This document shows positions 14,165 through 27,368 of a stretch of DNA of 47,464 bases, in pieces; position 1 is the stretch's first letter, and each line of letters starts with the position of its first letter. A model generated the notes under the pieces. That model was not told where the DNA came from. It worked only from the letters and a program-made list of their open reading frames with translations, and did not search any database. The stretch covers positions 1-47,464 of the IMG/VR virus record IMGVR_UViG_3300049919_000106; one strand, written 5' to 3'. The stretch is from a virus (Duplodnaviria > Caudoviricetes). Both the position numbers and the translations under genes were made by a program.

Positions 14165-14419
14165 TTAGACCTTGATTAGCTTTCTTTTAGTGATGCAAAC
14201 TTTTGGTATACTCATGTATGCCCCACAGTTTCCATTACTAATATCTTTTGCCATAGTCAGAGTGATTGATTGTTTGTCTTCATGGACAAGGTATCCAATT
14301 GTTTCTATCTCTGCTAGTTTATTCTCATCCTCAATCAGCTTACTGGCACGAACCCATCCGTCTGCTCCAGTTGCATCTATCCATCTAATGAATATGATCT
14401 GTGGCCCTTTAACTGCCAT
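14165..14419 (-). CDS. conserved phage hypothetical protein
   Basis: WIDA...GW...IETIGYLV...IPKVCI pattern; overlaps the groES stop. Confidence 0.7.
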   Translation of the reverse strand: MAVKGPQIIFIRWIDATGADGWVRASKLIEDENKLAEIETIGYLVHEDKQSITLTMAKDISNGNCGAYMSIPKVCITKRKLIKV

Positions 14420-14741
14420 ATTTTGAGAGGATATTCTCTTCCTTAATAAAGATAAAGTCTACTTCAAATACATTGATATTCATTGCTGAATACTTCTCAA
14501 AGAGAACAAACTCTCCTGGCTCTACACTATGAACATCTGGCCCCATGGAGACAACCATAGCATACTCTGGTTTGTCTTCATAGTTCTTAGGGTCATAAGT
14601 GACTCCGTCTGTGTCGAAATCGACTGGAACCAATAGTACATTATCCCTGAGTACTTGGTGCTTCGTCAGCTCCCTTAAGTTCTTGTTCTTTAGCAGAGCT
14701 ATCTTCTGATTGAACCCCTCCTTCATTGTTGTCTCCTGCAT
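14409..14741 (-). CDS. groES: co-chaperonin GroES
   Basis: LRDNVLL...AMVVSMGPDV...VEPGEFVLFEKYS...FIKEENIL; start may be the downstream Met at 14726. Confidence 0.85.
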   Translation of the reverse strand: MQETTMKEGFNQKIALLKNKNLRELTKHQVLRDNVLLVPVDFDTDGVTYDPKNYEDKPEYAMVVSMGPDVHSVEPGEFVLFEKYSAMNINVFEVDFIFIKEENILSKYGS

Positions 14742-14907
14742 TTTCTGTAGGCTTAAGTTCGATTAAACGTGCATCTGGGATGATTCCATTACGACCTGTT
14801 CGTAGGAATGGTTCAATGGCTAGACCATCTCGTTCAAGAATATCTTGAATTTCTTTAGCTGCGTTCTCTAGTTTACTACTTGCTTGTACTTGTGGTTTGT
14901 TTGTCAT
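14641..14907 (-). CDS. hypothetical protein between groEL and groES
   Basis: 88 aa; overlaps both neighbours. Confidence 0.55.
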   Translation of the reverse strand: MTNKPQVQASSKLENAAKEIQDILERDGLAIEPFLRTGRNGIIPDARLIELKPTENAGDNNEGGVQSEDSSAKEQELKGADEAPSTQG

Positions 14908-16420
14908 CTTCTTTTGTATTAACGATTATGTATCGGCTAGTAAGGATTGCGATAGCGATTGAGATTGAGTTCTCAATGGCCATCTGAGTTACTTTGTAGG
15001 GGTCAATGACTCCGGCTTTGATGAGGTCTTCTTCTTTGTCCGTTTTGGCGTTGTAGCCGTAGCTTCCTTTACTGACGGACAAGAGGTAATCTCCACTCTT
15101 ACCACAGTTTTCTGCAATCTGGCGAACACTCGCTTGACCAAACTTTTTAAATATTGCATCTTTTTCTTTATTAGTCGCTTGTAATAATGCTAGTCCTCCT
15201 CCTGGTAGATACCCGTACTTCATTGCTGCTCTTGTAGCATTGATGGCATCTTCATAGCGGAAGATCTTTTCTTGAGTTTCAATAGGTGTCTTTCCTGCAA
15301 CCTTTACTGTGACAGTACCAGTGGTCAGCACAGCTAGTCTACGAGAAATCTTTTCATTATCCTTATCCTTATCCTTCTCTGCCTGTAACTCTTCAACTAG
15401 GGCCATGAGTTTAGGATTTGCGTTATTGTGTGTAGCTAGAACAGTCTTGTCTGCTGTTGCATATACTTTCTTTGCTACTATGAAGTCTTCGGTTGTTAGT
15501 CCATTGACGAGTTTGCCTTGCTTCTCTGTTACTAGATTCCCACCTAGATAGATTGCGAGGTCATTGAGTACTGATGAATCATTCTCTTTTGCTTCTGGAT
15601 GTTTAACTAGAAGGAGATTGATGTACCCTTGGGTATGATTTCCTATCAAGAAGTTTGGAGCCTTACCAATGAAATCTCGTGCAATGATTACTAGATTCTT
15701 AATGTTAGCTTTGATTGCGGTAGATAGAATAGCTTTACATTCTTCTTCGTAGTATAATCGCTTGTCGGTTACAAGGACATGCACATCCTCATAGCCAGCT
15801 TTCATTGATCCATCATTTGCTAGTTCTGGTACTAGCATACCACTATTGATTACATATCCAGTGTCCTGAATAAGCTCTGTCTCATCTGATGTTGAAGGGT
15901 TTATGAAAACCATTCCTGAATCCCCAGCGGTCTTCACCACTTCAAGGACATTCATTGCTATCTCATCATCTCCTCCAGAAGATATAGTTGCAATGTTTAG
16001 AATATCTTGATCTGTACTAACCTTGATTGGATTGAGTGAGGCCACTGTTCTCCGACCAAAGGCTTCCAGGTTCTTCTTAAGCTGCATGACGTTCATACCA
16101 TCATCTAGCAGTTTCATCCCTTCACGGATTAGAGTAGAAGTTAGGAGAATGGTTGTACTTGTACCATCACCTGCTACTCTATTTGTATTTAATGCCCCAT
16201 ACTTGATTACTCTGATTATAGAATCCTCAATGGCATCCTCAGATGAGATCTGCTTAGCAATAGTTACGCCGTCATTAGTTACATAGATACCACCTTGGGA
16301 ATCTTCATAGAGAGTATTACCCCCTTGCGGACTGATGGTCTGGACAACAGGATCACTAATCTTCTTTACTGCGTTTAGTACTTTTTCCCTTACCTCTAAT
16401 GTGTTTACTATTAGTTTCAT
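14876..16420 (-). CDS. groEL: chaperonin GroEL
   Basis: TISPQG, TNDGVTIAK, AGDGTSTT, EDAINATRAA, LPGGG, GVIDPYKV motifs. Confidence 0.95.
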   Translation of the reverse strand: MKLIVNTLEVREKVLNAVKKISDPVVQTISPQGGNTLYEDSQGGIYVTNDGVTIAKQISSEDAIEDSIIRVIKYGALNTNRVAGDGTSTTILLTSTLIREGMKLLDDGMNVMQLKKNLEAFGRRTVASLNPIKVSTDQDILNIATISSGGDDEIAMNVLEVVKTAGDSGMVFINPSTSDETELIQDTGYVINSGMLVPELANDGSMKAGYEDVHVLVTDKRLYYEEECKAILSTAIKANIKNLVIIARDFIGKAPNFLIGNHTQGYINLLLVKHPEAKENDSSVLNDLAIYLGGNLVTEKQGKLVNGLTTEDFIVAKKVYATADKTVLATHNNANPKLMALVEELQAEKDKDKDNEKISRRLAVLTTGTVTVKVAGKTPIETQEKIFRYEDAINATRAAMKYGYLPGGGLALLQATNKEKDAIFKKFGQASVRQIAENCGKSGDYLLSVSKGSYGYNAKTDKEEDLIKAGVIDPYKVTQMAIENSISIAIAILTSRYIIVNTKEDDKQTTSTSK

Positions 16421-17561: not shown

Positions 17562-18316
17562 TTGTATTCTATTTTATCCATTGGTAATTTCTCTCCTTTA
17601 CTCCAGGCTCCACAAGTCTGGCAATGGTATCGTTGATACTTACAGACTTTTGTAACCATAACTCCCCTACTTTGAACATGATCTCCTCCACAATTTGGGC
17701 AGGATCTTGTAGTTCCTTGGTAGATATTTAGGTTAGGGCCATTTGTTATCCATCCTTTCATCCGATCATAGACATCATAAAGTAGAACAACATCTTGTTT
17801 ATTGTACTTCTTCATCAGTGCCCATGCTTTCATATCACCCCTCATGCAGTCAAACCATAGCTTGATGCCTCCTGTATCTTCTTTAGTACCTAGACCAAGT
17901 GTCTTAGCTAGATCATTAAGACTATTACTATTGAATCTAAAGTATCTTTTTGCGACTAGTTTAGTGTCGATATTTTTACTTGGCTCTGGCGGTGGCAGAT
18001 TGTGTATTAAAAACCTTGCATTGGCCACCTTGAAATCAAAAGAGTTTCCGTTATGAGCCACGAGTACATCTGCCTGGTTGAATAGTTCCCATAGGGTTGT
18101 TACTAATTCTTTGTCGCAGGAAGGATTCTTCTTATAAGATTTAAAGTCTGGTAGAGCTACTACATGGGTTTGTTTTTCATGTCCCCATCTGTAGCTATAC
18201 GATAACATATAGGTCTGTTGTTCAAAATCTAGTACATTCTGTTCCCATTTACCCCATACCCATCCAAGGTTAGGCGCATTTTCAAGATCATAGTACAGCA
18301 CTTTTGCTTTATTCAT
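17558..18316 (-). CDS. RNase H-like (DnaQ/YprB-type) 3'-5' exonuclease with C-terminal Zn ribbon
   Basis: YYDLEN, AHNGNSFD, YNKQDV; CPNCG...CQTCG. Confidence 0.85.
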   Translation of the reverse strand: MNKAKVLYYDLENAPNLGWVWGKWEQNVLDFEQQTYMLSYSYRWGHEKQTHVVALPDFKSYKKNPSCDKELVTTLWELFNQADVLVAHNGNSFDFKVANARFLIHNLPPPEPSKNIDTKLVAKRYFRFNSNSLNDLAKTLGLGTKEDTGGIKLWFDCMRGDMKAWALMKKYNKQDVVLLYDVYDRMKGWITNGPNLNIYQGTTRSCPNCGGDHVQSRGVMVTKVCKYQRYHCQTCGAWSKGEKLPMDKIEYK

Positions 18317-18419
18317 TATTAATTTCGTTAAATACGAAATGATTTAGTTTACTTCTAATGTATTTAAAAGATCTCTTTGTCCATCCAGCGAACTGTAATT
18401 TCTTATTAAATGATGTCAT
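18309..18419 (-). CDS. small hypothetical protein (36 aa)
   Basis: MTSFNKKLQFAGWTKRSFKYIRSKLNHFVFNEINNE; overlaps exonuclease start. Confidence 0.4.
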   Translation of the reverse strand: MTSFNKKLQFAGWTKRSFKYIRSKLNHFVFNEINNE

Positions 18420-18495
18420 ATACGTGATTGCCATTATATGGCGGCATTGCACCCCATGAGCTTACGAAGCCTTACATGGTATCTCAAAGAGAATA

Positions 18496-18568
18496 ATTCG
18501 GGCAGCAGAGTCGAACTACTTTCTTTAGTATCTATTGTACCAAGATCTTGCCGTTAGACCAGCCCAAA
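18496..18568 (-). ncRNA. tRNA-like element with abnormal anticodon arm
   Basis: Acceptor TTTGGGC/GCCCGAA, D-arm GTCT-AACGGCA-AGAT, T-arm AGTAG-TTCGACT-CTGCT; anticodon arm TTGGTA-CAATAGA-TACTAA lacks U33. Confidence 0.65.
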
Positions 18569-18592
18569 TTACCTTTACTTTATTGACAGCTG

Positions 18593-18677
18593 ATTACAAG
18601 CTGTAGTACCACTGTTGATTCAAACTAGGAACAAAGGCTCCCAGGATAACTTCGCTAGTGGTAGTACAACCTACAAT
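18593..18677 (-). ncRNA. 85-nt rod-shaped structured RNA
   Basis: 21-bp terminal helix (one C-C mismatch, several G-U pairs that work only on the minus strand) plus inner CTGGGA/TTCCTAG hairpin. Confidence 0.55.
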
Positions 18678-18678
18678 G

Positions 18679-18749
18679 TTTCGGCTCTACGAATTGAACG
18701 TAGGTGGCATGGTTATGAGCCATGTGTCTTACCACTAGACTAAACCGAA
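18679..18749 (-). tRNA. tRNA-Met/Ile2 (CAT)
   Basis: Cloverleaf TTCGGTT/AGCCGAA, CATGG-CTCATAA-CCATG, CTACG-TTCAATT-CGTAG; no encoded CCA. Confidence 0.85.
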
Positions 18750-18753
18750 ATTG

Positions 18754-18826
18754 CGAATGGTGCTGGAATCGAACCAGCCCGTGAAGTTTTGGAGACTCTA
18801 CCGCCAGCCTTGGAACATTACCACCC
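18754..18826 (-). tRNA. tRNA-Trp (CCA)
   Basis: GGGTGGT/ACCATTC acceptor, anticodon loop CTCCAAA, T-arm GCTGG-TTCGATT-CCAGC. Confidence 0.8.
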
Positions 18827-18828
18827 AT

Positions 18829-18985
18829 GTTAGAGTCTTTGTTAGATACAATCCTGGCCTCGGTATCAAGCAGACAAGATCCCGATATTCATAACTTAAG
18901 GGCATTGGATTGCCAGCTCCGTATTGGTTCTGCTTACCGTTACGGACAATGGGCTGCCATCTCCTGTTTACTAACCGACTCTAAC
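18829..18985 (-). ncRNA. ~157-nt multi-stem structured RNA of unknown class
   Basis: Ends pair (GTTAGAGTC/GACTCTAAC, GTTAG/CTAAC); 5' end coincides with predicted TSS and 3' end abuts tRNA-Trp. Confidence 0.65.
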
Positions 18986-18991
18986 TCTACT

Positions 18992-19020
18992 AGTATAGCA
19001 TACTTTGTAATACAATGCAA
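18992..19020 (-). promoter_or_regulatory. sigma70-type promoter of the ncRNA/tRNA operon
   Basis: TTGCAT-17nt-(TGc)TATACT. Confidence 0.75.
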
Positions 19021-19021
19021 G

Positions 19022-19144
19022 CTATTTCTTCAATAGACCACGTTTTTGCATTAATGGCAAGAGTACCTTACGAAGATACATACCAGATACATTCATCTTC
19101 GATTGATTCCATTTTATAAATTCTCTCTTCTCTGATTTTAACAT
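19022..19144 (-). CDS. small basic hypothetical protein (40 aa)
   Basis: MLKSEKREFIKWNQSKMNVSGMYLRKVLLPLMQKRGLLKK; fills the gap between tRNA-like element and promoter. Confidence 0.45.
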   Translation of the reverse strand: MLKSEKREFIKWNQSKMNVSGMYLRKVLLPLMQKRGLLKK

Positions 19145-19145
19145 A

Positions 19146-19214
19146 AGGGATATTAAGGACTCGAACCTTACCTTCCTAGTAACTAGGCTTGCTAACCGCT
19201 AACACTACTATCCC
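19146..19214 (-). ncRNA. tRNA-like element with truncated anticodon arm
   Basis: GGGATA/TATCCC acceptor, D-loop AGCGGTT, T-arm TAAGG-TTCGAGT-CCTTA; anticodon arm only CCTAG-TTA-CTAGG. Confidence 0.65.
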
Positions 19215-19230
19215 GTAGATAGCTTGGCCA

Positions 19231-19245
19231 TGAAATGAATCAGAG
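19231..19245 (-). repeat. 15-nt direct repeat CTCTGATTCATTTCA, copy 1 (hairpin loop)
   Basis: Identical to 21297-21311; sits in the loop of an 11-bp ATGGTTTGGCC/GGCCAAGCTAT stem. Confidence 0.8.
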
Positions 19246-19260
19246 GGCCAAACCATATTA

Positions 19261-19428
19261 TTACTTCTTCTTCTCATTTTCCTCCTTCTTTGGAAGAACA
19301 CATCCCCTTCCTGTCCAGCAAGGGGTAGGCATTTTAACATGCTGCCCGTTACTGGGTCGGTGGAACTCGGTGACTGCGTGTGTTGCCACACAGCGGCCAC
19401 ACCTTGTACAATTAATGATCTTTCTCAT
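19261..19428 (-). CDS. small Cys-rich (Zn-finger-like) protein, GC-rich cassette gene 5
   Basis: MRKIINCTRCGRC...CWTGRGC; SD GGGAG 6 nt before ATG at 19428. Confidence 0.7.
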   Translation of the reverse strand: MRKIINCTRCGRCVATHAVTEFHRPSNGQHVKMPTPCWTGRGCVLPKKEENEKKK

Positions 19429-19441
19429 GCTGATCTCCCAA

Positions 19442-19750
19442 TCAAACGCATGTATCTTGCCGACACCACATGGCGAGCAAGTCATCTCGCTCGTCTACCA
19501 TGAAGACAAACTGCATCTTCAAGTTGGCGTCAAAAAGAATGAGCCACAGGCGGTCATTCTTCTCATCGTAGGTGGCAATGCACTCGACATTCCGCCAGCC
19601 CAGCTGAGGGACGTTGCATTGCTGATCAATGACGATCTGGTAGCTCATCACTTCGACCAGCAGACCTTGCGGCGGCTTGTCCATCTCCCCTACCGCAAAG
19701 GCAGAAAAGATAACGCCGAAGACAAACAACACAAACGCTTTCATCATCAC
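19442..19750 (-). CDS. secreted/membrane-anchored small protein, GC-rich cassette gene 4
   Basis: Signal-peptide-like MMMKAFVLFVFGVIFSAFA; SD AGGAG. Confidence 0.75.
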   Translation of the reverse strand: MMMKAFVLFVFGVIFSAFAVGEMDKPPQGLLVEVMSYQIVIDQQCNVPQLGWRNVECIATYDEKNDRLWLILFDANLKMQFVFMVDERDDLLAMWCRQDTCV

Positions 19751-25579: not shown

Positions 25580-26434
25580 CTAAAAATCAACTCCATCACC
25601 TACATCTATTACTGGTAATCCTAATGATCTCCATGCTGCTATTACCCTGGGTCGATCATCTATAACTGTTTCTATGTCTACATTCTTTAGATATTTATTA
25701 TAGATCTCTGTCTTAACAATAGAGTCTTCCCGTTTATCCTTACTAGGGCGCATTATTAAGGCAAGATATGGCACATCAACATTTTCTGCAAGCCACTTCT
25801 CTGTTACTTCTCGGTAATCTTCTGGTCTAGCGGAAACAAAGATAACCTCATGGTCTTTTTTAGAGTACTCCTTAAGCATCATTAGTACCCCTTTACGCAC
25901 TGTATCTTTGTCCATCTCAGCGAAGAATCTATCCCAGTTTTTGTTTTCTCCACTGGCCCAATGTTGCCTGTGTCTAATGTCGGCAATAGTTCCATCTATA
26001 TCGCAGACTATTAGTTTACTTTTTGTAGGAAATAATCCATACTGTAGTGCCATAGATTTAATTACATGAGCACCAACCTTTTTAACACGGTCTTTATCTC
26101 TCTCAATACAAACATCATAAGGTGTATCTACGTCTACGATCTCAAACTTAGCCTTAGCCATTTCAGCCACGCCACGCCACATGGTTTCATTATCTGGGTT
26201 AAGGTTACAATCATCTACAATGACACTGACGTTTTCATTTAGGGCCTTTAGAGTAAGTGCTGTCTCTGTCTCAACGATCAGCCTCTCATTCTTACCCGAC
26301 CACACTGAGAAGTGGAACATCTCTCGCAGTAGATCACGATTGACTCTGATATACTCACCTGTTGTGGCAATCTCTTTTGCAATAGTGCTTTTGCCACTAG
26401 CAGGTAGTCCTCTGAGCATTACAAGTTTAGCCAT
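25580..26434 (-). CDS. pseT: polynucleotide 5'-kinase/3'-phosphatase (T4 PseT-like)
   Basis: GLPASGKST P-loop, NRDLLR; HAD DIDGT, SAR, IDDR. Confidence 0.92.
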   Translation of the reverse strand: MAKLVMLRGLPASGKSTIAKEIATTGEYIRVNRDLLREMFHFSVWSGKNERLIVETETALTLKALNENVSVIVDDCNLNPDNETMWRGVAEMAKAKFEIVDVDTPYDVCIERDKDRVKKVGAHVIKSMALQYGLFPTKSKLIVCDIDGTIADIRHRQHWASGENKNWDRFFAEMDKDTVRKGVLMMLKEYSKKDHEVIFVSARPEDYREVTEKWLAENVDVPYLALIMRPSKDKREDSIVKTEIYNKYLKNVDIETVIDDRPRVIAAWRSLGLPVIDVGDGVDF

Positions 26435-26435
26435 A

Positions 26436-27368
26436 TTAGTTTACTCTGTCTGCTACACTAATCGAACCTGATAATATATCCTTGTAGATCTGGATTGCTT
26501 TCTTTAGGGCGCATCTTTGTAGGTGACGAAAGTTAAGATGCTCTACCTTCTTTTGGATTTCCCAAATTTCCTCAGTAATCATGTCGTGGTAAGCTGAGTT
26601 ACAAACTCTAGGGATATGTTCAAGATCTAGCTTCTTGTCGATCTGAGGCTGTAGCTTATTCATTATCTTCTCGATTCTAGGTAGTGTCATGTACTTATTT
26701 ACCACCCACATCTCAAAGTAAGTCTCTGAGTGTTTATTATTACCGCCAAATGTCACAGCATTGTCTTCCTTAAATGATTCTGATACAATCTTTGCGTATT
26801 CAAGATCTCCAAACTTGTTTATAAAGTCAAAATTTCTGAGCACAATACCCTCACCCCTATCCCCTAGCTCTGACTTACCAACCAGTTCCATTAATACTTC
26901 TTCTGTAGGGTTATCAAATACACCATGGTAGTTTGGTATCTTAATGTTAAATTGAAGTGCAAGATTTATAACATCTTCTTTAGGTAACATTTTTTCCGAT
27001 CCTTTCCACCATACTGATACATCAAAGAGGTAGAATTGTTTGTAGTTAGTCTCCTTGTACTGAACAGTATGTCGGACTAGCCATTCACCATATAGGCGAT
27101 AGTTAGGATGATATTTTAGTAAGTTACGAATACCTTGATGATTTTTTACGTAATCAATTAGACCATTAAAGGTTCCGACTTCTTCGTGAATATCTACACC
27201 TTTAGTAAGGGTATTGTTGCGAGATCCTACCTTTATATGTTCACCATCAAACCAAATCTGTGCGTTTGCACCATCAATCTTTTCCTCTACGTGGACTCGG
27301 CCAAACAAAATACCATCAGTCTCATCCTTGCCTAATCTATGTATCTTTGGGTATCGTTTAAAATCCAT
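26436..27368 (-). CDS. ATP-dependent RNA ligase (Rnl2-like)
   Basis: EEKIDGAN (motif I), LYGEW, FYLFD, EGIVLR, AKIV. Confidence 0.85.
   Translation of the reverse strand: MDFKRYPKIHRLGKDETDGILFGRVHVEEKIDGANAQIWFDGEHIKVGSRNNTLTKGVDIHEEVGTFNGLIDYVKNHQGIRNLLKYHPNYRLYGEWLVRHTVQYKETNYKQFYLFDVSVWWKGSEKMLPKEDVINLALQFNIKIPNYHGVFDNPTEEVLMELVGKSELGDRGEGIVLRNFDFINKFGDLEYAKIVSESFKEDNAVTFGGNNKHSETYFEMWVVNKYMTLPRIEKIMNKLQPQIDKKLDLEHIPRVCNSAYHDMITEEIWEIQKKVEHLNFRHLQRCALKKAIQIYKDILSGSISVADRVN

What the first reader, a model, noticed from the sequence alone, without database searches (positions are those of the whole stretch)
18829..18985. Unclassified ~157-nt structured RNA with a predicted 7-bp kissing-loop
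Seen (minus strand): closing helices GTTAGAGTC/GACTCTAAC and GTTAG/CTAAC; hairpin GATGG-cagc-CCATT; hairpin TCCGTA-ac-GGT-[AAGCAGA]-ACC-aa-TACGGA; and stem CTGGC/GCCAG enclosing TCGG-g-ATC-[TTGTCTGCTT]-GAT-a-CCGA. The two loops are complementary (AAGCAGA/TCTGCTT). The first base is 7 nt after the -10 box and the last is 2 nt before tRNA-Trp, so transcription start and RNase P cleavage would define it exactly. I do not recognise the family. Possible roles (inference): oligomerising RNA like phi29 pRNA, a 6S-like RNA polymerase decoy (an alternative rod fold CGGTA-AGCAGA/TCTGCT-TACCG exists), or a protein sponge.
Basis: partly seen in the sequence, partly recalled or inferred. Interest (0 to 1): 0.8.

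Follow-up and report, generated by a model that had tools for sequence, protein, structure and literature searches.

The report
Orphan kissing-loop RNA heading phage tRNAs
An uncultured phage carries, between a promoter and its tRNA genes, a conserved 157-base non-coding stretch of no catalogued family that is predicted to be cut out as a stable RNA locked by two kissing loops and likely serves as a decoy against host RNA-attacking defences, though neither the RNA nor its job has been shown.

Summary
The element is real. All listed helices are in the sequence, between an extended -10 promoter and tRNA-Trp of a 47.5-kb uncultured phage. Rfam has no match. One related phage keeps it: 9 differences in 182 bases, against 22 of 48 third codon positions changed in the neighbouring gene. 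Its five mapped changes include one compensatory pair in the closing stem, and none breaks a pair. The 7-bp loop-loop match is rare in shuffles (4 of 1000) and costs only 1.1 kcal/mol to expose, but no covariation tests it. The interior is no more stable than shuffled sequence. The 6S and pRNA readings failed their tests. Related phages carry unrelated stem-closed RNAs behind similar promoters; one 158-base RNA may be a distant relative (borderline). Best reading: a stable RNA released by RNase P, acting as a counter-defence decoy beside tRNAs and tRNA-repair enzymes (about 30%). The scan noted similar orphan RNAs before phage tRNAs on other DNA; T4 RNAC/RNAD are the published precedent. Expression was not shown.

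The parts
18992..19020 (-). sigma-70-type promoter: -35 TTGCAT (19020-19015), 17-nt spacer with TG (extended -10), -10 TATACT (18997-18992)
   Evidence: similarity to the relative in run X1 stops at 19021, just past the -35 box; function inferred from consensus
18829..18985 (-). 157-nt orphan structured RNA (159 nt if cut at the tRNA-Trp 5' end)
18971..18985 (-). 5' strands of closing helices P1 (RNA 1-9) and P1b (11-15)
   Evidence: pair probabilities 0.95-1.0; relative changes RNA 12 and 144 together, keeping the pair
18829..18845 (-). 3' strands of closing helices P1b (RNA 141-145) and P1 (149-157)
18918..18946 (-). hairpin 1 (P3 RNA 40-45/63-68, P3b 48-50/58-60) with loop AAGCAGA at 18935-18929
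   Evidence: 97-98% of sampled structures
18901..18914 (-). small hairpin RNA 72-85, loop AUCCAA, resembling the Trp anticodon loop
   Evidence: 61% of structures when the kissing loops are reserved; sequence; the resemblance is post hoc and untested
18860..18885 (-). hairpin 2 (P5 RNA 101-104/123-126, P5b 106-108/119-121) whose loop carries TCTGCTT at 18874-18868
   Evidence: 44% of free structures, 99% when the loops are reserved; no change listed in the relative
18753..18826 (-). tRNA-Trp(CCA), two G-U pairs in the acceptor stem, no encoded CCA end; its 5' end would set the RNA's 3' end
   Evidence: Rfam scores it only as a weak tRNA-Sec-model hit
18678..18749 (-). tRNA-Met(CAT)
18592..18677 (-). 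second stem-closed rod-like element (86 nt) in the same operon, no family
   Evidence: fold; no Rfam hit; replaced by other letters in the relative
18495..18569 (-). tRNA-like element called Tyr(ATA) by ARAGORN, with a non-canonical anticodon arm (likely pseudo-tRNA)
   Evidence: not matched by the Rfam tRNA model
25580..27368 (-). context: RNA ligase (26436-27368) and polynucleotide kinase/phosphatase (25580-26434)
   Evidence: PHROG 548 and 505; Pfam PF09414, PF25109

Best explanation
This 157-base stretch at the head of the phage's tRNA operon is likely transcribed from the promoter just upstream, would be released by RNase P cutting at tRNA-Trp as a stable RNA with paired ends, is predicted to fold into a four-way junction locked by a 7-bp kiss between two hairpin loops, and likely works in trans as a compact decoy that binds host RNA-attacking defence proteins. 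Shown: the sequence, the boundaries, the closing helices and conservation in one relative. Predicted fold (model D): P1 1-9/149-157, P1b 11-15/141-145, P1c 19-22/135-138, P1d 27-30/128-131, then a junction carrying hairpin 1 (31-71), a small hairpin (72-85), an A/U-rich linker and hairpin 2 (101-126), with loop 51-57 pairing to 112-118. Inferred: transcription, processing and the kiss. Most weakly inferred, from gene context only: the decoy role. My odds by step: real RNA gene 0.8, kiss forms 0.55, decoy function 0.3.
For: RNA gene: the ends coincide with +1 and the tRNA 5' end, and such a closing helix arose in 20 of 200000 shuffles. In run X1 two contigs cover the RNA and promoter with 9 differences in 182 bases, against 37 in 206 in the neighbouring exonuclease gene (Fisher p 6e-5), where 22 of 48 third codon positions differ. 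Similarity ends at the -35 box upstream and is replaced by other letters downstream of the tRNA-Met start. Of five mapped changes, two form one compensatory pair, one keeps a pair as G-U and two fall in unpaired places; random changes do this in 0.2-0.3% of trials. One change puts a stop in the only ORF of more than 30 codons that starts inside the RNA (read by hand). Kiss: 4 of 1000 shuffles; reserving both loops costs 1.14 kcal/mol of ensemble energy against -7.9 for the free 7-bp duplex. Processing: RNase P RNA was found in 24 of 26 genomes of the only candidate host family. Decoy context: the operon also holds a pseudo-tRNA and a second stem-closed element; the genome encodes an RNA ligase and kinase, a pair known from T4 tRNA repair (recalled); related phages place different stem-closed or tRNA-like RNAs behind the same type of promoter, the swapping pattern typical of accessory cargo (inference).
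Against: No binding partner, target or expression was shown. The interior is no more stable than its shuffles (860 of 2000). Conservation rests on one relative, and the two halves of the compensatory pair lie on different contigs (depth 10.4 and 12.9) that I assume come from one genotype. One difference in RNA 65-94 and up to three in RNA 29-59 or the promoter were counted but not located, so loop 1 may have changed. A recently exchanged module could also give a block of high identity. In the free ensemble both loop cores are open in only 17% of structures and hairpin 2 competes with another helix (50%). None of seven analogous phage RNAs passed the same two-hairpin kiss test. The host is unproven: one 1.6-kb contig in a Ca. 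Kaiserbacteria genome, 1 of 401 genomes of that order.
Confidence: 0.3

Rival explanations
1. A cis-acting 5' leader: its paired ends protect and fold the tRNA precursor and aid processing, and the released piece has no job of its own.
For: It starts at +1 and ends 2 nt before the first tRNA. All mapped structural evidence from the relative is in the closing stems, and the interior adds no excess stability.
Against: The interior is also conserved: one listed change in RNA 95-143 while third codon positions next door are 46% diverged. Two related phages head their tRNA genes with only a short hairpin or a short stem around the tRNA (G021, G020).
Confidence: 0.22
2. An RNA-only oligomer: the two complementary loops pair between molecules to build dimers, rings or a small cage, as ROOL and GOLLD do near phage tRNA islands.
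For: The 7-bp loop match could form in trans as well as in cis. ROOL and GOLLD are described as phage RNAs often near tRNA islands that form cages held by kissing loops (PMC12286853, passages seen). A self-complementary hexamer lies in the linker (seen in the sequence; not unusual by chance).
Against: Only one loop pair, in an RNA far shorter than GOLLD (many members over 800 nt). No Rfam match to either family. An intramolecular kiss across the junction needs no partner.
Confidence: 0.15
3. A 6S-like decoy of the host sigma-70 RNA polymerase, using the rod fold.
For: Length and paired ends fit 6S RNAs (recalled). The rod pairing exists in the sequence. The candidate host lineage has short 6S-like RNAs.
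Against: The rod is 6.8 kcal/mol above the MFE and was sampled at 0%. No RF00013 hit. It scores 2.1 bits (E 7.5) on a model of the host-lineage 6S-like RNAs, where a held-out control scores 58.3 bits. The window has 13 sigma-70-type promoter-like sites by my rule (no shuffle control) and no recognised polymerase or sigma factor among 63 ORFs scanned, so sequestering the holoenzyme would likely hurt the phage.
Confidence: 0.07
4. A base-pairing small RNA, riboswitch-like gate or ribozyme controlling the operon or a phage mRNA.
For: Several mutually exclusive helices exist in the interior, as in switches.
Against: No terminator-like site in 18000-19500. The longest complement elsewhere in the window is 11 nt, no better than shuffles (193 of 200 reach 11 or more). 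No ribozyme or riboswitch family matched.
Confidence: 0.06
5. Not a functional RNA: a chance fold in a recently exchanged intergenic block.
For: One relative only; no homologue among 528 fetched loci; interior stability at background.
Against: Boundary-exact closing helix (20 of 200000), structure-preserving changes (0.2-0.3%) and the loop match (4 of 1000).
Confidence: 0.1

Closest known systems
Phage T4 RNAC and RNAD
   Same: Small RNAs transcribed from a phage tRNA region, function unknown (PMC3014915, one passage seen; PMC9697503, passages seen, which also reports Northern validation). Same kind of position and likely the same route of release.
   Different: No sequence or model comparison links them (T4 records gave no match). 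T4 RNAs are shown to be made; this one is not. A kissing loop is not mentioned in the passages seen.
ROOL and GOLLD RNAs
   Same: Phage and prophage RNAs often near tRNA islands, function unknown, held by kissing loops (PMC12286853, passages seen).
   Different: Much larger, many pseudoknots, shown to form cages. No Rfam match here.
manA RNA motif (RF01745)
   Same: Similar size (192 model positions), found in phages, with a tentative pseudoknot (PMC2864571, passages seen).
   Different: No candidate in this genome at E up to 10. Described from marine and cyanophage sequences in possible 5' UTRs.
6S RNA (RF00013) and the short 6S-like RNAs of the candidate host class
   Same: Own promoter, paired ends, 110-185 nt.
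   Different: Lacks the conserved core of those RNAs and the rod with a central bubble; 2.1 bits against 58.3 for a control.
phi29 pRNA
   Same: Similar size and loop-loop pairing (recalled).
   Different: No Rfam match; this phage packages with a terminase large subunit and portal, and the RNA sits in a tRNA operon.

Membership tests
6S RNA | match to RF00013 | tested here: not met
   no hit at E up to 10 over 18300-19300
6S RNA | rod with a central bubble as the main fold | tested here: not met
   rod helices in 0% of 5000 sampled structures; constrained rod -39.3 against MFE -46.1
6S RNA | conserved core of the 6S-like RNAs of the candidate host class | tested here: not met
   model R2: 2.1 bits for this RNA, 58.3 bits for held-out L433
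6S RNA | binds sigma-70 holoenzyme and templates product RNA | not testable with these tools
   needs biochemistry
phi29 pRNA | match to the Rfam pRNA model | tested here: not met
   no hit among 4227 families
phi29 pRNA | phi29-type packaging motor in the genome | tested here: not met
   terminase large subunit (phrog_2) and portal hits; no phi29-type motor recognised among 63 ORFs
phi29 pRNA | two complementary loops | tested here: met
   whether they pair in cis or in trans is unknown
ROOL / GOLLD | match to the Rfam models and length of several hundred bases | tested here: not met
   element is 157 nt
ROOL / GOLLD | RNA-only multimer | not testable with these tools
   needs native gel or cryo-EM
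manA (RF01745) | match to the covariance model | tested here: not met
   0 candidates in the genome; no hit
T4 RNAC/RNAD-like stable RNAs of phage tRNA regions (loose kind) | non-tRNA, non-coding unit inside a phage tRNA transcription unit | tested here: met
T4 RNAC/RNAD-like stable RNAs of phage tRNA regions (loose kind) | accumulates as a discrete RNA during infection | not testable with these tools
   no RNA holder listed
T4 RNAC/RNAD-like stable RNAs of phage tRNA regions (loose kind) | sequence homology to RNAC or RNAD | tested here: not met
   blastn against 50,697 phage records gave 8 matches, all in the tRNA part of the query; a sensitive model comparison was not run
tRNA, tmRNA, Y RNA, SRP RNA, RNase P RNA, self-cleaving ribozymes | match by ARAGORN or Rfam | tested here: not met

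The most novel reading that the evidence does not exclude
This is the founding member of a family of about 160-nt phage RNAs, including the 158-nt RNA of G010 with two compensatory changes in the kissing helix, that use a loop-loop lock, possibly swapped between molecules, to build a compact RNA-only particle that neutralises a host anti-phage ribonuclease: an RNA counter-defence factor carried as exchangeable cargo at the head of tRNA operons of phages of Patescibacteria.
Probability: 0.13. Interest if true: 0.78.

Novelty: new variant of a known kind. Interest (0 to 1): 0.47.

Why it matters
Phage tRNA regions have carried unexplained stable RNAs since T4 RNAC and RNAD, and the large ROOL and GOLLD RNAs turned out to be RNA-only cages. 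This RNA is small, has sharp predicted ends and makes one clear structural prediction (a 7-bp kiss), so it is cheap to test by probing, native gel or cryo-EM. The phage group is large: 690 capsid-protein clusters, several at 80-94% identity, so a proper covariation set very likely exists in public assemblies. If the RNA blocks a host defence nuclease or self-assembles, it would give a function to a long-unexplained class. As it stands it is one more orphan of a recurring kind.

Tried and rejected
Expression: no RNA holder listed. The one run listed (X1) is probably DNA; one loose end looks like a library adapter (recognised from memory), so it was used only for sequence comparison. Positions 18922-18926 had no cover. 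Homologue searches that found nothing: blastn of the region against 50,697 phage records (8 matches, none in the RNA) and of the RNA against 72,556 plasmids (0). A pattern of both kissing loops in viral contigs gave 5 matches, 3 distinct, all in unrelated context. 41 exonuclease loci held no similar RNA. 113 loci with this tRNA-Trp type, 58 distinct upstream stretches printed, had none. Of 25 capsid-related records 6 had a match at E up to 1; the only strong one was a tRNA-Trp. A pattern built from words shared with G010 gave 39 matches: G010 itself and 38 without the RNA's features. A group-specific small protein found no relative. 80 metagenome and 80 viral exonuclease loci and 79 GroEL loci added none; nhmmer over all 528 loci (3.13 Mb) found only the element itself. 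The single-sequence model R1 found only itself in 33 sources, 0 of 50 records (50 of the 76 I had picked; 49 gave no first-look candidate, so the test is weak), 0 of 151 candidate-host genomes, best E 1 in 100 sources, and a closing-stem-only match at E 0.03 in 8 sources with filters off. G010 homology is unresolved: local alignment 22 of 1000 shuffles and global 65 of 1000, among 10 comparisons; co-mapped helices 43 of 1500, alignment score 141 of 1500, and the automatic mapping did not recover the kiss; G025 scored as high on several helices; MAFFT aligned the pair differently; hairpin P3 has no counterpart. Rejected readings: 6S, pRNA, manA, antisense target in the window, small ORF. Protein look-ups gave no host names. 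Literature searches (listings seen) showed no paper describing this RNA; supplements of PMC2864571 and PMC8040213 were not read and may hold unlisted motifs.

Full report
Setting. The window is a near-complete virus record of 47,464 bases. A PHROGs scan of 63 chosen ORFs shows a tailed phage with terminase, portal, capsid, holin, endolysin, GroEL/GroES, primase-helicase, amidoligases, an RNA ligase and a polynucleotide kinase; no RNA polymerase or sigma factor was recognised. No isolated phage shares its capsid protein, but 690 protein clusters do at E up to 1e-30. The only host hint is a 1.6-kb contig with a 59% identical capsid gene in a Ca. Kaiserbacteria genome; it was 1 of 401 genomes of that order, so the host is unproven.

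Observation. The minus strand reads: promoter TTGCAT-17-TATACT with an extended -10 TG, six bases, the 157-nt element (18985-18829), two bases, tRNA-Trp, tRNA-Met, an 86-nt stem-closed rod, and a tRNA-like element with an odd anticodon arm. The stock promoter scan missed the site because its -35 box matches only 3 of 6, and it found no terminator in 18000-19500. Rfam finds only tRNA-Met at gathering level in the whole window and nothing over the element at E up to 10.

More than chance? A closing helix of 9 or more pairs joining +1 to the tRNA boundary arose in 20 of 200000 shuffles. The MFE of -46.1 kcal/mol was reached by 26 of 2000 full shuffles but by 860 of 2000 shuffles of the interior alone, so the closing stems carry the stability. 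A perfect 7-base match between the loops of two hairpins arose in 4 of 1000 shuffles; a looser test gave 26 of 2000 and 22 of 2000. These tests were framed after the feature was seen.

Fold. Reserving the two loops costs 1.14 kcal/mol of ensemble energy and gives a frame 0.9 above the MFE: stacked closing helices P1, P1b, P1c and P1d (27-30/128-131), then a four-way junction with hairpin 1, a small hairpin at 72-85, an A/U-rich linker and hairpin 2. The free 7-bp duplex is worth -7.9 kcal/mol, so a kiss could pay for itself even after a loop penalty of several kcal/mol (inference; no pseudoknot energy model was run). With the relative's five mapped changes this frame becomes the MFE outright.

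Conservation. One public run holds a related phage as contigs. Two contigs cover 18835-18921 and 18927-19021 with 9 differences in 182 bases; the first also covers part of the downstream exonuclease gene with 37 in 206 (Fisher p 6e-5), where 22 of 48 third codon positions differ. Similarity stops at the -35 box, and 407 bases between the tRNA-Met start and the exonuclease gene are replaced by 307 others. Five changes are mapped in the RNA: positions 12 and 144 swap a U-A pair of P1b to A-U, position 9 turns C-G into U-G, positions 10 and 95 are unpaired. Random sets of five changes keep all pairs and include a compensatory pair in 0.27% or 0.23% of trials. Limits: the two halves of the pair lie on different contigs; four differences near contig ends were counted but not located (one in RNA 65-94, up to three in RNA 29-59 or the promoter); loop 2 is unchanged and loop 1 unread, so the kiss has no covariation for or against it.

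Other relatives. No second homologue was found (details under tried and rejected). The nearest phages in the searchable collections share about 50-60% of the exonuclease and 43-61% of GroEL. Several of them place a different non-coding unit behind the same type of promoter: G010 a 158-nt stem-closed RNA ending at tRNA-Asn, G006 one of 179-203 nt, G025 141 nt, G020 112 nt, G001 about 145 nt before tRNA-Ile, and L372 a 213-nt RNA with tRNA-like arms. None of those tested matched an Rfam family (G020 not tested) and none of seven passed the two-hairpin kiss test. G010 shares the last 13 promoter bases, length and position; by eye its helices map colinearly and it has a 5-bp loop match with two compensatory changes, but formal support is borderline (22 of 1000 and 65 of 1000 among 10 comparisons; 43 of 1500) and MAFFT disagrees. 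I put that homology at about 30%.

6S test. RF00013 gave weak hits in 4 of 61 genomes of the candidate host order, none over the cut-off. A motif from these matched 14 of 201 genomes of the class against 1 for the reversed control. Thirteen of the 14 look like short promoter-led, stem-closed RNA genes, and an alignment of 14 sequences shows changes on both sides in 7 of 13 pairs. A model built from them scores a held-out member at 58.3 bits and the window's element at 2.1 bits; none of the phage analogues scored. Together with the unfavourable rod, the 6S reading is not supported.

Mechanism. Shown: sequence, boundaries, closing helices, structure-preserving conservation in one relative. Inferred from established tRNA processing: transcription from +1 and RNase P cleavage at the tRNA-Trp 5' end would leave a 159-nt RNA with paired ends and a 2-nt 3' overhang; RNase P RNA is present in 24 of 26 genomes of the candidate host family. 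Predicted: a four-way junction locked by the kiss. Function is a judgement from context. The operon also carries a pseudo-tRNA, the genome encodes an RNA ligase and kinase, the slot is filled by different RNAs in different relatives, and the small hairpin shows a loop like the Trp anticodon loop (post hoc, low weight). I therefore favour a decoy for host RNA-attacking defence proteins (0.3), ahead of a purely cis-acting leader (0.22), an RNA-only oligomer (0.15), a chance fold (0.1), a 6S-like decoy (0.07) and a switch, ribozyme or antisense RNA (0.06; longest complement in the window 11 nt, at background).

Known comparisons. T4 RNAC and RNAD are small RNAs of a phage tRNA region with unknown roles (PMC3014915, one passage; PMC9697503, passages). 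ROOL and GOLLD lie near phage tRNA islands and form cages with kissing loops (PMC12286853, passages). manA is of similar size (PMC2864571, passages) but does not match. The element works, as far as can be told, like the first kind, and is a member of no catalogued family. Eight literature searches (listings only) showed no description of it. Earlier notes of this scan describe similar orphan RNAs before phage tRNAs in other genomes and none for this sequence or genome; these are unchecked notes and gave me the T4 and manA leads.

Verdict. A real, selected, uncatalogued RNA gene candidate of a recurring kind. The kissing loop is more likely than not but unproven; expression and function are not shown. 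Interest 0.47; new variant of a known kind.

Noticed in passing
L432-L439, L441-L449 (genomes of the class of G027): Short 6S-like RNA genes (about 110-185 nt) in this Patescibacteria class fall below Rfam's 6S cut-off but share a promoter, closing stem, conserved core with compensatory changes and a terminator-like tail. The listings showed no paper on them.
   Followed up: partly
L372:2115-2327 (+) and L186:1566-1785 (-) (G006): Two related tRNA-like RNAs with a D-arm-like 5' part and a T-arm-like helix interrupted by a long insert; local alignment z 5.07, 0 of 300 shuffles; no Rfam family. A partial third copy may lie in L328 (E 0.0025).
   Followed up: partly
window 18592-18677 (-): Second stem-closed rod in the operon: long closing stem, central bubble, 8-bp apical hairpin; no Rfam hit, no homologue among 528 loci, replaced in the relative.
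   Followed up: partly
window 18495-18569 (-): tRNA-like element called Tyr(ATA) with an elongated anticodon stem and no U-turn base; likely a pseudo-tRNA.
   Followed up: no
L203:8136-8293 (-) (G010): 158-nt stem-closed RNA between a promoter sharing 13 bases with the window's and tRNA-Asn, heading an array of 22 tRNAs; possible distant relative.
   Followed up: partly
L201:5437-5639 (+) (G006) and L198:10551-10695 (-) (G001): Promoter-led non-coding RNAs upstream of the exonuclease gene that share one 10-base word near their 3' ends (seen by eye); no significant overall alignment, no Rfam or 6S-model match.
   Followed up: partly
window 18998-19014 (-) and promoters in L198, L201, L210, L212: Promoter spacers of this phage group often hold an imperfect palindrome of the form TGT-N-N-TACA, a possible regulator site (seen by eye).
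   Followed up: no
window 14409-16420 (-): A 47-kb phage carrying a divergent GroEL/GroES pair shared by at least seven related records at 43-61% identity.
   Followed up: no
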